Shown here: positions 26,109 to 58,673 of the stretch, piece by piece
How positions within the stretch are numbered: position 1 is the first letter of the stretch
Layout of the letters: each line of letters starts with the position of its first letter
IMG/VR virus record: IMGVR_UViG_3300049847_000198
Span: 1-64,000 of that record
DNA from: a virus
Strand: one strand, 5' to 3'
DNA length: 64,000 nt
Program-made: the position numbers and the translations under genes
The notes under the pieces: model-generated
Database searches by the model: none
The model's input: the letters and a program-made list of their open reading frames with translations, nothing else
Told to the model about the DNA's origin: nothing

Positions 26109-26385
26109 ACCAATGAAACTCGAATCATGCCCGATACGCGGCACTCATGGGCTTCTTTTTCAGACCCATACTCTGACGGCGAAGAACGTGTTGAACGTCC
26201 TCTCTCGTGGCAGGAATGCGCTAATCGAAAATGCAGACTACCATGCAAGTTCTGGGTTGGCGTTGCCGACATGATTGATGTGCTTGTCGAAGACGAGTCG
26301 ATCATGTTGCATGGCGACGACTATGTATGGACTGGCAACGGCGATCTTGTTTTTGTTGCTCCGTAGATCCAAGAAAGGCAAACTA

Positions 26386-26832
26386 ATGACACACGAAGAA
26401 TCTCGTGAACGCCGCAAGCAGATCGTGAAACTGGCGAAGACTGGAATGTCTCTCGCCGATATCTGTAACCAGACAGACGCCTCGATGGCGACTGTTAGGT
26501 TTGCTTGTGCTGAGCACGGCGTCGGTTTTATGACGCATGAGCAGAAGACTCAGAGGCGTATGGATATCGCTAATGACGTCAATGGCGGAATGGACGTTAA
26601 TCGCGCTGCCAAGAAATACGGAATGTGCCGTGAGTCTATTATGAATGCGTGCAAAGAGCACGGAGTCGAAGTCGTACTGAAGCATTTTCGCAATCCAGTG
26701 AGCGCGTTCAAGATTTTGAAGATGCTTCTCGATGGTAAAAGCGGGCCTGTGATTGCTGAGAAGTTCAACATTTCTAAGCAGCGAGTTTCGCATGTAGCAG
26801 TTGCCGCTCGTAAAGCGGGATTCAAGGTGTAA
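26386..26832 (+). CDS. protein with three tandem HTH motifs
   Basis: GMSLADIC..., GMDVNRAAKKYG..., GKSGPVIAEKFNISKQRVS. Confidence 0.7.
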   Translation: MTHEESRERRKQIVKLAKTGMSLADICNQTDASMATVRFACAEHGVGFMTHEQKTQRRMDIANDVNGGMDVNRAAKKYGMCRESIMNACKEHGVEVVLKHFRNPVSAFKILKMLLDGKSGPVIAEKFNISKQRVSHVAVAARKAGFKV

Positions 26833-27039
26833 CATGACATACATATCCCATCTCGCAGACAATAAATCGCCGTTCATACTCACTGCGTGTGGAATTTCTT
26901 GGCAAGGATGGCAGGCACCGAAAGGCTACGCCGACATTCCCGACCACAAGGTGCTCCCGCCGTTCTCTGAACCTCGACCGCATATTGATCGAGTTGAATT
27001 TTGCGAAGCGTGCCAGAAACTGGCACGCGAGGATAAATA

Positions 27040-27192
27040 GTGAAAATCGGAAAACTACGAACATTCCTATATGCCATCGCTCGGTTTCTTGGCGACATCA
27101 ACGCCGTGAAGCGCGGCAAAGTCGCAGAGCGTGTTGGTAGACGTATCGCAGGCAAGCTGACTGGCCGACTGCTTGGTCGGTTCTTTAAGTAA
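27040..27192 (+). CDS. 50-aa cationic amphipathic peptide
   Basis: MKIGKLRTFLYAIARFLGDINAVKRGKVAERVGRRIAGKLTGRLLGRFFK*; GAGGA RBS. Confidence 0.65.
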   Translation: MKIGKLRTFLYAIARFLGDINAVKRGKVAERVGRRIAGKLTGRLLGRFFK

Positions 27193-27202
27193 ACACAGGA
27201 CG

Positions 27203-27362
27203 TTGATTCCGTTTTTGGTTGTGGTACAATCACGCCGCAACCGACAAGTCGAATCCAAGTCTCTAAAATCACGGCCACTCTCCCTGCTTGTTGATTCGCT
27301 GTCGGTTGCACTTCAGCGGCTATCGCTTCTTGGGGAGTGGTCTTTTTTTATTGGAGTGTTGC
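27203..27362 (+). promoter_or_regulatory. promoter and attenuator-like structured leader of recA
   Basis: TTGATT-16-TACAAT; crossing helices GCAACCGAC/GTCGGTTGC and GGCCACTCTCC/GGGGAGTGGTC followed by a T run. Confidence 0.6.
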
Positions 27363-55774: not shown

Positions 55775-56566
55775 TCAGGATTCTCCGTCAGGCTTCCATC
55801 CGTTACGGATCAAAACAGCGGCGAAGTCAGGCTTCAAATGATCTGGATGTTTTTTGAACTTGCCGTGCTCGTCAACGCTCCCGTTCTTGATCTTCAGAAG
55901 ATTGTTTTCGTCTACGACGCTCTGCGCCTCGGCGAGTGGGAATCCGTGCGCGACGGAGGTTCCGACAGCAACGACACTGATATCGGCTACTGCGTCAAGC
56001 ATTGCGACCAAATCAGGCTTCGCTGATTCCGCTAACCGCATCGCTGGATGAAAGAACAAGTCGTCGAAATCGACTCTTCCGGTATCGTGTCCAGTCGAAA
56101 TAAACACCTGAACTGCCGCCGCGTCTGCGTACTCAAGCACTTCTTCTAAAAGAAGTCGCACACGAAGCTCTCGCGTCTTGTAGTCGGAGACTGTCGGCGA
56201 CGGCGGGCATTCCTGCCCGAAGCCCTTCATCATCTGCCGCACGCGATCTTCGTGAGACGGCTTATGTGTCGGCCAGCAACCGATGAGTTTGTCTGCTGGA
56301 TACGACTGCAAAGAAAACGGTTCGCTCGGTACTCCACAAACGGGAACCAAGTTGCGTCCGGCTGACCCAGAAACTTCACGAGCAATACCCTCAAGCAAAG
56401 ACATGCGTCCTTCTCGCGTATAGGCCGTTCCGCTGGCAGACGTTTCGATGTCAAGTTGATCGCACCGCTCATGGTAACTAGCCACGTCTTCGGCGATCAG
56501 CGTTTGCAACGCAACTCCGCTTTCGATCTCTTCTTCCGTAAACGGTTCGGTTGGTTTTTCAATCAT
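55775..56566 (-). CDS. MazG/PRA-PH-like NTP pyrophosphohydrolase
   Basis: R..LLLEEVLEY, DAVADISVV, V.ENNL.K, GKFKK. Confidence 0.8.
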   Translation of the reverse strand: MIEKPTEPFTEEEIESGVALQTLIAEDVASYHERCDQLDIETSASGTAYTREGRMSLLEGIAREVSGSAGRNLVPVCGVPSEPFSLQSYPADKLIGCWPTHKPSHEDRVRQMMKGFGQECPPSPTVSDYKTRELRVRLLLEEVLEYADAAAVQVFISTGHDTGRVDFDDLFFHPAMRLAESAKPDLVAMLDAVADISVVAVGTSVAHGFPLAEAQSVVDENNLLKIKNGSVDEHGKFKKHPDHLKPDFAAVLIRNGWKPDGES

Positions 56567-57687
56567 TACCTTGCCTCAATTAGAGCCATAAGAAAGAAAA
56601 CGCTGAAGTCCGCGTTACGCATCAGGAACGCACGCGGTTCCGACTGTGGACCACCAGCACACACATGCACAACCAGCGGTTCTTTGGACGGAAAGCACTT
56701 ACTCGCCGAAGCCACGATCTCCACGTTCAAGCAAATCGTCACGTCAGGTTCGCCTTCACAACTACACGGCACCGTGGCTTCCGACTCACCATGCTGTGAC
56801 TGCATCGACAGGCTGATCGTCTCTTTTTGGATGTGGGTGTCAATCCCCACGATCTCTGGCAGCTTCACCACGGCCATCTGTTGTGCTGCCAAGAAGAAAT
56901 CACCAGCCTCTGCGATCGCCACTGGAGACGACTGCCTCAGTTTTCGATAGTTGGCCAGCGTGAATTTGCTGCCGATGTTCTGATGGCAGCCGACCTCAAC
57001 AGCCATCTCTTCGCTCTTCGACTGCAATCGGATCGTCTTGTCGCTGGCGTAAACGTCCGCCTTCGTTCCAACACAGGCGTCGGCCAGCAGAGCGAGCGAC
57101 TCGCGAGCACAGTTGATCTGCGGGAACTCTTCGCAGTCAGCGTTCAACGAGATACACACGAAGCGAGTCAGTTCGCTGCGTTCGCTCATGTCGTTACCGA
57201 AGACCATCGCCTTGCCAGCATCGCAGAATATGCCGCCTGAACCGATGCCGCCATCCCGCGTCGCTGACGACGAATACCGGAACGCGGCACGCAGAACTTC
57301 AGGATCAGTCGAGAAGACAAACTTGTCGCTGAACTCCGGCATTGAGCGATTATCTTCTTCGTGCATCGTGTTGATGGTCGTCTTGCCGCCATCGAATGCG
57401 ACGCCGATCTTCTCTTTGCCGACGCCGAGTTCTATAACTTCTCCGCGAGCACTCATTACGGCACCGAGAAGTTTTTCTGACAGAACGTAGACGCAGAACT
57501 CGTCGTCGAACTTCTCTTCAAATGAGACCTCGCAGAACGCCGCCTGTGCATTCATCGCAAACAGAGACAGGACACGGTCTTTGCACGTCAGTTTGATCGC
57601 CTGATAGCACGGGTTCGGACTGCGAACAGCCGTGAACCGCGAGACCAGAGAGACAGCTTTCTTCAATAACTCAGATTTGATTTTCAC
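56566..57687 (-). CDS. dnaN: DNA polymerase III beta sliding-clamp-like protein
   Basis: 373 aa; I...L.KAV..V.R....RSPNP....IKL, three-domain pattern, C-terminal LMALI. Confidence 0.75.
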   Translation of the reverse strand: MKIKSELLKKAVSLVSRFTAVRSPNPCYQAIKLTCKDRVLSLFAMNAQAAFCEVSFEEKFDDEFCVYVLSEKLLGAVMSARGEVIELGVGKEKIGVAFDGGKTTINTMHEEDNRSMPEFSDKFVFSTDPEVLRAAFRYSSSATRDGGIGSGGIFCDAGKAMVFGNDMSERSELTRFVCISLNADCEEFPQINCARESLALLADACVGTKADVYASDKTIRLQSKSEEMAVEVGCHQNIGSKFTLANYRKLRQSSPVAIAEAGDFFLAAQQMAVVKLPEIVGIDTHIQKETISLSMQSQHGESEATVPCSCEGEPDVTICLNVEIVASASKCFPSKEPLVVHVCAGGPQSEPRAFLMRNADFSVFFLMALIEAR

Positions 57688-58395
57688 TTACTTGCCTTTC
57701 TTTGCGTTATCGGAGAACAGTTTTCGGCACTTCTCAAGGATGTCTTCGCTGTCGAAACAAGCCCATGCTCGTTGCTCGAAGTCTGTCTGGATGATCTCTT
57801 CAATCATCGACGCGGCGTCTTCAGGACTATGGCACATCAGCAACTCTTTGTCTGGAATTGTCGTGCTCTGCTTGGAGTTTTCTGTGCTGATTTCCCAATC
57901 AGTTTTCATTGCTTGCCTTTCGGTTAGATTCGTCACGTTTCGGTCGCGGAGACACAAAAACAACCTCTTCACGACAGGAAGCCTCGCCATGCCTCACCGC
58001 CTTTGAAATCGCAGCGTCGATGGCTGAGATTTCCGTCTCGCCATAAGCACGAGACATCTCGCCGTAGTCCAAGGATTCATGAAACAACCAGGCAACGTAG
58101 GTTCCGTATTTGTCGGGGCCACTCACCACTGAAGTCACGAACATATCGCATTCCAATCGAACCTGGTTGACGTTTTACGCAATCGTTTTTTGTTTAACGA
58201 CTTGCGGCTTGAGTGCCACCTGACACTCGAAAGTTAGCTAAGCAATCGAGCATAGATGTCTCTGGTTTTCAGGAAGTCCGTGGGTCTCAACCCACAGCGA
58301 AATCAATTGATCTTCCCAGCAATCCGAGCACAGACCATAAGGCGAACCGACAGGTTCATCGTAGCGGAACAGTTGTCCGCAATCGCAGCGTTGAT

Positions 58396-58641
58396 CTACG
58401 TCGAATTGCTCTCGTTCTTCTGGCATGGAATCACCTCGTTCGCTCGCTTCTTGTCGTAGATCTCTTCTCGATCAATCTCCACGTTTGAGTCCGCCTCAAA
58501 AGATAGCCTGCAAGCACTCGCTTTTCCGTGATCTCCAGTGATTAGCCGAGAAACCTGAATTTCGATCTTCGTTGGCAACAAAGACGGAGGCACGACAATC
58601 AACACCTTCTCGTTCTGTTTTCTCGTAAGAACCAAAGCCAT
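58396..58641 (-). CDS. csrA: carbon storage regulator CsrA homolog
   Basis: MALVLTRKQNEKVLI...RLSFEA...VEIDREEI. Confidence 0.85.
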   Translation of the reverse strand: MALVLTRKQNEKVLIVVPPSLLPTKIEIQVSRLITGDHGKASACRLSFEADSNVEIDREEIYDKKRANEVIPCQKNESNST

Positions 58642-58673
58642 GCCAGCAGTCCTTTGCGTTTGAGATGGCGGAT

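What the first reader, a model, noticed from the sequence alone, without database searches (positions are those of the whole stretch)
26373..58660. GGA-free GAAAGGC ribosome-binding sites in a phage that encodes CsrA
Seen: GAAAGGC precedes starts at 26373, 35884, 36432, 37163, 37365, 38313, 38966, 40496, 40674, 41211, 42286, 43393, 43608 and, on the minus strand, ~57694 (beta clamp) and ~57915. In contrast csrA itself (AAAGGAC), MCP, TMP, recA and HU have GGA in their RBS. Known: CsrA/RsmA represses translation by binding GGA, often in the SD sequence, and GAAAGG can still pair with a 16S tail ending CCUUUC. Inference: many early genes evade CsrA while host mRNAs, late genes and csrA itself stay repressible, giving a translational takeover or timing circuit.
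Basis: partly seen in the sequence, partly recalled or inferred. Interest (0 to 1): 0.75.

Follow-up and report, generated by a model that had tools for sequence, protein, structure and literature searches.

The report
Phage-private GAAAGGCAA ribosome-binding tag
About twenty early and DNA-replication genes of an uncultured 112-kb phage start behind the same nine-letter ribosome-binding sequence, GAAAGGCAA; the pattern is real and specific to this phage, but I found no evidence that it exists to escape the phage's own CsrA regulator.

Summary
The unit is the 9-mer GAAAGGCAA, not GAAAGGC. It occurs 13 times in the window against 0.72 expected, and 19 times in the 112-kb genome. Eighteen of the 19 copies lie 1-6 nt before a start codon. 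With close variants it heads 21-29 genes. These cluster in two modules: small genes of unknown function at 31-45 kb, and DNA-metabolism genes at 46-75 kb. The csrA gene is real by Pfam, conserved RNA-binding residues and predicted fold.

The CsrA-evasion reading is not supported by comparison:
- Six near-complete phages without csrA use the same 9-mer.
- Eighty csrA-carrying viral loci prefer GAAAGGA (A 80, C 18).
- GGA-bearing sites in this phage are not enriched in CsrA-type hairpins.
- AGG is depleted around the tag as much as GGA.

Candidate host relatives (Planctomycetota) have a canonical 16S tail and almost never use the tag.

My best reading is a phage-private, unstructured Shine-Dalgarno cassette for one gene class. 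Escape from CsrA remains a minority possibility. The scan has noted a similar private early-gene tag in another phage (e1-5632688).

The parts
6714..6722 (+). GAAAGGCAA, 4 nt before the ATG of a 90-aa ORF (6727-6999); it follows a tRNA-like 3' end
   Evidence: the gene call is less certain than the others
26373..26381 (+). GAAAGGCAA before a 148-aa HTH protein (26386-26832)
35884..35892 (+). GAAAGGCAA before a gene of unknown function, 35898-36224
36432..36440 (+). GAAAGGCAA before 36447-36809; the TGA stop of the upstream ORF overlaps the tag
37163..37171 (+). variant GAAAGGCGA before 37176-37382
37365..37371 (+). GAAAGGC (followed by CG) 7 nt before the ATG of ORF 37379-37642
   Evidence: my gene caller did not pick this ORF
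38313..38321 (+). GAAAGGCAA before 38326-38820
38966..38974 (+). GAAAGGCAA before the 498-aa protein of unknown function, 38980-40476
40496..40504 (+). variant GAAAGGCGA before the GTG start of 40510-40695
40674..40682 (+). variant GAAAGGCAC before 40688-41002
41211..41219 (+). GAAAGGCAA before 41226-41387
42286..42294 (+). GAAAGGCAA before 42296-42478 (tandem ATG ATG)
43393..43401 (+). GAAAGGCAA before the GTG start of 43405-43620
43608..43616 (+). GAAAGGCAA before 43623-44099
57692..57700 (-). GAAAGGCAA before the GTG start of the sliding-clamp gene 56566-57687
57913..57921 (-). GAAAGGCAA before the 73-aa gene 57688-57909
58396..58641 (-). csrA homologue, 81 aa, of a subfamily with a VPPS insertion
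   Evidence: Pfam PF02599, 35.8 bits against a cut-off of 27; LVLTRK and DREEIY kept; model pLDDT 82, ten best PDB matches all CsrA/RsmA/RsmE
58646..58657 (-). csrA's own ribosome-binding site: a 3-bp stem with an AAGGAC hexaloop, 4 nt before the ATG
   Evidence: a single weak hairpin
15979..16000 (-). capsid-gene ribosome-binding site in a 7-bp-stem hairpin whose 8-nt loop contains GGA
   Evidence: the class as a whole is not enriched
44537..44545 (+). the only GAAAGGCAA copy not at a start site, inside gene 44109-44657
   Evidence: one such copy is what chance predicts; the antisense fold is unremarkable

Best explanation
GAAAGGCAA is a phage-private Shine-Dalgarno cassette used by one class of genes: the small early genes of unknown function at about 31-45 kb and the DNA-metabolism genes at about 46-75 kb. 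GAAAGG pairs with the last six paired bases (CCUUUC) of a canonical 16S tail (inferred). The C ends that helix at six pairs, because A or G would extend it and T would open the AGGUGA register (inferred). The A-rich, G-poor surroundings keep the start region unfolded (shown by folding statistics). The result would be uniform, structure-independent translation starts for genes that must be translated promptly in a host lineage whose own genes rarely use strong Shine-Dalgarno sites. Absence of GGA follows from this design. Whether it also matters for CsrA is open.
For: Position and number: 18 of 19 exact copies lie 1-6 nt before starts, and the window holds 13 against 0.72 expected. The phage's other start sites use AGGAG, GGAGG, AGGTGA and GAAAGGA, which implies a canonical anti-SD. 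Candidate host relatives have 16S ends reading GGATCACCTCCTTTCT. Start regions with the tag fold less than GGA-type ones: mean MFE -6.7 against -10.1 kcal/mol (P 5e-4), accessibility 0.59 against 0.50 (P 0.005), 38% A against 30%. AGG, GGA and GAG are all depleted beside the tag while GGC is not, as expected if competing SD-like words are avoided. In a second SD register (GAGG) the same CAA follows. The same 9-mer heads clusters of small genes in unrelated phage contigs and bacterial genomes from many phyla. The tag clusters by module.
Against: Eighteen identical 9-mers carry more information than six base pairs of SD pairing need, so a specific reader may exist. In the other phages the 9-mer sits inside longer repeated cassettes, so those are weak independent evidence. 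The host is only inferred, from RecA similarity. Nothing here measures translation.
Confidence: 0.45

Rival explanations
1. CsrA evasion. The tag lacks GGA so that these mRNAs escape CsrA-family repressors, both the phage's own and the host's paralogues, while GGA-bearing host, late and csrA mRNAs stay repressible.
For: The tag is GGA-free and csrA is real, lies inside the tagged leftward module and has a GGA ribosome-binding site in a small hexaloop hairpin. One of ten other tag-using phage contigs (G013) carries csrA directly beside a five-gene run of GAAAGG[C/G] sites, against a published base rate of 1.2% csrA-carrying phages (PMC7366521). Sampled Planctomycetota carry up to 14 CsrA paralogues. 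GGA is depleted beside the tag, 8 against 15.7.
Against: Nine of ten tag-using contigs lack csrA, and six of those are at least 90% complete. Eighty csrA-carrying loci prefer GAAAGGA and none has more than two GAAAGGC start sites. GGA-loop hairpins are not enriched at the phage's GGA-bearing sites, 8 against 13.3 in shuffles. AGG is depleted as much as GGA. GAAAGGAAA sites lie in the same block. From established knowledge of CsrA, a lone GGA in an SD does not make a strong target, because the dimer usually bridges two sites.
Confidence: 0.2
2. The 9-mer is an operator for an unidentified sequence-specific factor, such as a translational repressor, activator or endoribonuclease of phage or host, that controls the tagged genes as one regulon. 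This would resemble T4 RegB or RegA acting on early mRNAs.
For: C and the following AA are conserved beyond what SD pairing needs, and the flanks are not conserved. The tag is restricted to particular modules. It is private relative to candidate host relatives.
Against: No RegB, RegA, S21 or FliW homologue was found. About 40 neighbouring proteins show no RNA-binding domain. The spacing to the start varies by 5 nt, as for an ordinary SD.
Confidence: 0.2
3. A phage-encoded antisense RNA carrying the complement UUGCCUUUC masks all tagged sites together. This would resemble the C4 RNA of P1/P7 or the private tag noted earlier in this scan.
For: One complement copy lies about 110 nt downstream of the minus-strand gene 44654-45157, in a predicted unpaired stretch.
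Against: A single non-start-site copy is what chance predicts (about 0.7-1.4). It lies inside a coding region. The fold z-score is -0.54.
Confidence: 0.04

Closest known systems
T4 early-gene GGAG Shine-Dalgarno sites and the RegB endoribonuclease (and the RegA repressor)
   Same: A phage gene class is marked by its own variant of the ribosome-binding sequence, which lets one factor treat the class as a unit.
   Different: No RegB or RegA homologue was found here, and no factor is known to read the tag. This comparison rests on my own knowledge of T4.
CsrA/RsmE repression at GGA-loop hairpins over the SD (RsmE-hcnA, PDB 2JPP; CsrA-glgC)
   Same: The phage encodes a CsrA-fold protein. Its own site and the capsid gene's site place GGA in a hairpin loop.
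   Different: Such hairpins are not enriched in this phage. The feature under study is the absence of GGA, not a binding site.
Phage-borne csrA genes (Bcep22-like Burkholderia phages; Pseudomonas phages)
   Same: csrA in a phage genome is already documented: 30 of 2517 phages (PMC7366521), and JC1 gp47 (PMC9144972).
   Different: Those reports treat csrA as an accessory ('moron') gene with no mechanism and do not mention ribosome-binding-site classes. This copy belongs to a divergent subfamily with a VPPS insertion.
Extended Shine-Dalgarno GAAAGGAGG of bacteria with a CCUCCUUUCU 16S tail
   Same: GAAAGG uses the same 3'-terminal part of the anti-SD at normal spacing.
   Different: The helix is cut short by C, and the C form far outnumbers the complementary A form (22 against 7, compared with 18 against 80 in other phage loci).
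Private early-gene ribosome-binding tag noted earlier in this scan (e1-5632688)
   Same: About twenty early genes of an uncultured phage share one unusual ribosome-binding sequence.
   Different: That phage was reported to encode exact complements of its tag. Here only one complement exists and it fits chance.

Membership tests
Shine-Dalgarno ribosome-binding site | Lies a few nucleotides upstream of start codons and almost nowhere else | tested here: met
   18 of 19 exact copies are 1-6 nt (4-9 nt from the GG) before called starts
Shine-Dalgarno ribosome-binding site | Complementary to the 3' tail of the host's 16S rRNA | tested here: inconclusive
   GAAAGG pairs with CCUUUC in the 16S ends of three Planctomycetota genomes. 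These are only candidate host relatives. The C and the AA do not pair.
Shine-Dalgarno ribosome-binding site | Recruits 30S subunits | not testable with these tools
   Needs toeprinting or reporter assays
CsrA/RsmA protein family (PF02599) | Profile match above the curated cut-off | tested here: met
   35.8 bits against 27
CsrA/RsmA protein family (PF02599) | N-terminal LxLxRR/K strand and the R-E-E motif that carries the key RNA-binding arginine (R44 in E. coli) | tested here: met
   LVLTRK and DREEIY are present; L3, R7, R58 and E60 are invariant across 28 subfamily members. The residue roles come from established CsrA literature, not from a test here.
CsrA/RsmA protein family (PF02599) | Beta-strands followed by a C-terminal helix, as in solved CsrA structures | tested here: met
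   Model pLDDT 82.4. The ten best PDB matches are all CsrA/RsmA/RsmE, with target-normalised TM 0.67-0.82, though E-values are weak at about 0.05. The dimer was not modelled.
CsrA/RsmA protein family (PF02599) | Binds GGA-containing RNA | not testable with these tools
   Needs EMSA or similar
Phage CsrA regulon (GGA-loop hairpins on start sites) | GGA of the ribosome-binding site sits in a hairpin loop more often than chance | tested here: not met
   8 genes with stems of 5 bp or more against 13.3 +/- 3.2 in shuffles. The per-site rate of 0.10 is below that of internal GGA sites, 0.13.
   80 csrA-carrying loci: A 80, G 27, C 18, T 18. Nine of ten tag-using contigs lack csrA.
T4 RegB/RegA-type control of an SD class | Phage encodes a RegB or RegA homologue | tested here: inconclusive
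   No match, but the control genomes gave no hit either and the contig is estimated 79% complete

The most novel reading that the evidence does not exclude
The tag marks a set of phage mRNAs that CsrA-family proteins cannot see, in a host lineage that carries up to 14 CsrA paralogues. The phage's own divergent CsrA would then damp translation of GGA-bearing host and late-phage messages while tagged early and replication genes keep being translated. That would be a translational takeover switch written into the ribosome-binding sites.
Probability: 0.2. Interest if true: 0.75.

Novelty: new variant of a known kind. Interest (0 to 1): 0.45.

Why it matters
Differences in ribosome-binding sequence between gene classes are a little-explored layer of phage gene control. 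The classic case is T4 RegB acting on GGAG. Here one exact 9-mer marks about twenty genes of two modules, in a phage that also carries a CsrA-type regulator and probably infects a lineage with many CsrA paralogues and weak Shine-Dalgarno use. A single-base swap (C to A) makes a clean test. If the tag proves to be read, or deliberately not read, by a regulator, that would show translational programming of a phage infection by sequence tags. If not, it documents how a phage standardises efficient start sites.

Tried and rejected
- **Close relatives of the phage.** None were found with the capsid protein or helicase as single queries.
- **Helicase-alignment relatives (L004-L014).** They lack csrA and lack the tag, but they are too distant to serve as a control.
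- **Scan of bacterial genomes for paired tags.** The results were dominated by tandem paralogues and by Verrucomicrobia CRISPR repeats that happen to contain the 9-mer, so they did not help identify the host.
- **CsrA-based routes.** The phage CsrA has no close homologue. tblastn against 50,697 phage records found nothing. Alignments A2 and A3 were too variable for locus searches. The metagenome scan returned marine CsrA-like genes without the VPPS insertion and without GAAAGG start sites.
- **Host anti-SD complementary to GAAAGGC.** Rejected for the candidate lineage.
- **Promoter or duplicated-cassette origin in this phage.** Rejected because the flanks are not conserved.
- **Anti-tag RNA.** Only one complement exists, which fits chance.
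- **SD-strength comparison on ORFs of 200 aa or more.** Too noisy to use.
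Full report
**Setting.** The window is the first 64 kb of a single 112,081-bp linear viral contig, estimated 79% complete. I called 158 genes with a self-trained codon model and refined their starts.

**Observation.**
- GAAAGGC occurs 29 times in the window against 11.1 +/- 3.5 in shuffles. GAAAGGA is at chance, 12 against 12.8.
- Anchoring on the motif shows that the real unit is GAAAGGCAA. In 22 start-site copies, C is followed by AA in 17. In the 20 other copies the following bases look random. 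Upstream flanks carry under 0.6 bit per position.
- The exact 9-mer occurs 13 times in the window against 0.72 +/- 0.87 expected and 19 times in the genome. Eighteen of the 19 lie 1-6 nt before a called ATG or GTG.
- It is the commonest 9-mer in the genome apart from a tandem GGCTAC array.
- One-mismatch forms at start sites include GAAAGGAAA, GAAAGACAA, GAAAGCCAA, GAAAGGGAA and GAAAGGCGA.
- At start sites GAAAGGN is followed by C 21-22 times, A 5-7, T 1-2 and G 1.

**Which genes carry the tag.**
- Tagged genes cluster. In the rightward block at 31.4-44.7 kb, 11 exact and 5 variant copies occur among 27 genes. All of these genes lack Pfam or PHROG matches.
- In the leftward block at 46-75 kb, tagged genes include the sliding clamp and an intein-bearing SF2 helicase. 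The block also holds ERF, a 5'-3' exonuclease and a MazG-like protein.
- Only three tagged genes lie elsewhere.
- Virion genes (capsid, portal), recA, the HU-like gene and csrA use GGA-containing sites.
- GGA-type sites, including GAAAGGAAA at 33278, 41004 and 45705, are interspersed within the tagged blocks.

**The CsrA gene.**
- ORF 58396-58641(-) matches PF02599 at 35.8 bits against a cut-off of 27.
- It keeps LVLTRK and DREEIY.
- It belongs to a small subfamily with a VPPS insertion, seen only as metagenomic singletons.
- A model with pLDDT 82 has CsrA, RsmA or RsmE structures as its ten best PDB matches.
- Phage-borne csrA is already documented: 30 of 2517 phages (PMC7366521), and JC1 gp47 (PMC9144972).

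**Host and anti-SD.**
- The phage's other sites (AGGAG, GGAGG, AGGTGA, GAAAGGA) imply a canonical anti-SD.
- The phage RecA is closest to Planctomycetota. The best match is 58% identical, and 5 of 81 genomes reach E of 1e-83 or better. None of 81 Pseudomonadota and none of 81 Thermodesulfobacteriota reach that level. This is a tentative host phylum and agrees with an earlier unchecked note.
- Three such genomes have 16S ends reading GGATCACCTCCTTTCT. GAAAGG therefore pairs with CCUUUC, and the C faces a U.
- In 400 kb from each of two of these genomes, GAAAGGC at start-like positions occurs 0.5-0.75 times per 100 kb against 19.6 in the phage. The 9-mer occurs 0-1 times against 17.

**Tests of the CsrA-evasion idea.**
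1. *Other phages that use the tag.* A scan of viral contigs for two copies 195-225 nt apart returned mostly chance hits. About a dozen loci had every copy at a start site. Whole-record searches found csrA in only one of ten (G013). Six csrA-less records are at least 90% complete. Each has 3-5 copies, usually inside longer repeated cassettes.
2. *The one exception.* In G013, csrA diverges from an operon whose first five genes use GAAAGG[C/G], while the rest use GGA sites. This is suggestive. With a base rate near 1%, though, finding one csrA carrier among ten is not significant.
3. *Phages that carry csrA.* Eighty csrA-carrying viral loci (1.35 Mb) show A 80, G 27, C 18 and T 18 at start-site GAAAGGN, and none has more than two C sites. 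This phage's 22 of 32 departs from that baseline (binomial P 3e-13), but csrA carriage clearly does not predict the C form.
4. *GGA around the tag.* GGA beside the tag is depleted, 8 against 15.7 (P 0.011). AGG is depleted as much, 7 against 15.7 (P 0.006), and GAG is also low, while GGC is not. This fits avoidance of competing SD-like words rather than of GGA specifically.
5. *CsrA-type hairpins.* Prompted by earlier scan notes on other csrA-carrying phages, I tested whether GGA-bearing sites sit in hairpin loops. Eight have stems of 5 bp or more against 13.3 +/- 3.2 in shuffles, so there is no enrichment. Individual examples exist: the capsid gene (7-bp stem, 8-nt loop) and csrA itself (3-bp stem, AAGGAC loop).
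6. *Other readers.* No RegB, RegA, S21 or FliW homologue was found.

**What the tag looks like functionally.** Tagged start regions (-35 to +25) fold less than GGA-type ones. Mean MFE is -6.7 against -10.1 kcal/mol (P 5e-4) and accessibility is 0.59 against 0.50 (P 0.005). They are richer in A and poorer in G. The same CAA follows SDs in another register (GAGGCAAG). In several cases the upstream stop codon overlaps the tag as TGAAAGG.

**Conclusion.** I rank the explanations as follows.

| Explanation | Confidence |
|---|---|
| Phage-private, standardised, unstructured Shine-Dalgarno cassette for one gene class | 0.45 |
| CsrA evasion | 0.20 |
| Operator for an unknown factor | 0.20 |
| Antisense RNA against the tag | 0.04 |

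The pairing, the helix-capping role of C and any effect on translation are inferred. Position, enrichment, module restriction, low structure and the comparative counts are shown.

Noticed in passing
window 55111-55184 (-): A tRNA gene (Rfam, 48 bits) that ARAGORN reads with a 4-base anticodon 'ttca', that is a UCA-type anticodon able to read UGA.
   Followed up: no
window about 6590-6712 (+): A tRNA-like T-arm and acceptor 3' end (GGTTCGATTCC...) directly upstream of the tag copy at 6714. Neither ARAGORN nor Rfam calls it. It could be an attP-type tRNA fragment or an unusual tRNA.
   Followed up: no
L187, L212, L208, L209 (Verrucomicrobia genomes): Long CRISPR arrays whose repeats end in ...GCCGAAAGGCAATGG(T/A)GAC. 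The 9-mer is embedded by coincidence, and these arrays dominated the genome-wide pattern scan.
   Followed up: no
G090, G115, G063, G023, G138, G157 (Planctomycetota genomes): These genomes carry 8-14 CsrA paralogues each, all of the canonical MLVLSRK...GDKVRLGIEAP type in the copies I read. That is an unusually expanded CsrA family.
   Followed up: partly
G013 (record of L075/L132), about 9.0-11.4 kb: A second phage contig in which csrA sits back to back with an operon whose first five genes use GCTACAGAAAGG[C/G], while all other genes use GGA-type sites.
   Followed up: partly
window 58396-58641 (-) and proteins P0122-P0149: The phage CsrA belongs to a small subfamily with a conserved VPPSxxPT insertion between the first strands. 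It is known only from about 27 metagenomic singletons on short contigs.
   Followed up: partly
window 15979-16000 (-): The capsid gene's ribosome-binding site is enclosed in a perfect 7-bp stem (UUUUGAA/UUCAAAA) that ends at the ATG, with GGA in the loop.
   Followed up: partly
window 4-92 and genome-wide: A GGCTAC hexamer array (14.8 copies) lies at the contig start. ACGGCTACGGC occurs 24 times in the genome.
   Followed up: no
L001:12-2966 (-) = genome 64012-66966: The SF2 helicase and its homologues contain an intein-like block (Hint and LAGLIDADG Pfam domains in relatives). The database gene call is 915 aa. The 984-aa form behind the tag aligns over 98% of homologues.
   Followed up: partly
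window 61275-62759 (+): A 494-aa protein combines an HNH endonuclease domain with several sigma-70 region-4-like and HTH repeats.
   Followed up: no
G063 and G090, 400 kb each: These Planctomycetota show little or no enrichment of Shine-Dalgarno words upstream of genes, while the phage uses them heavily.
   Followed up: partly
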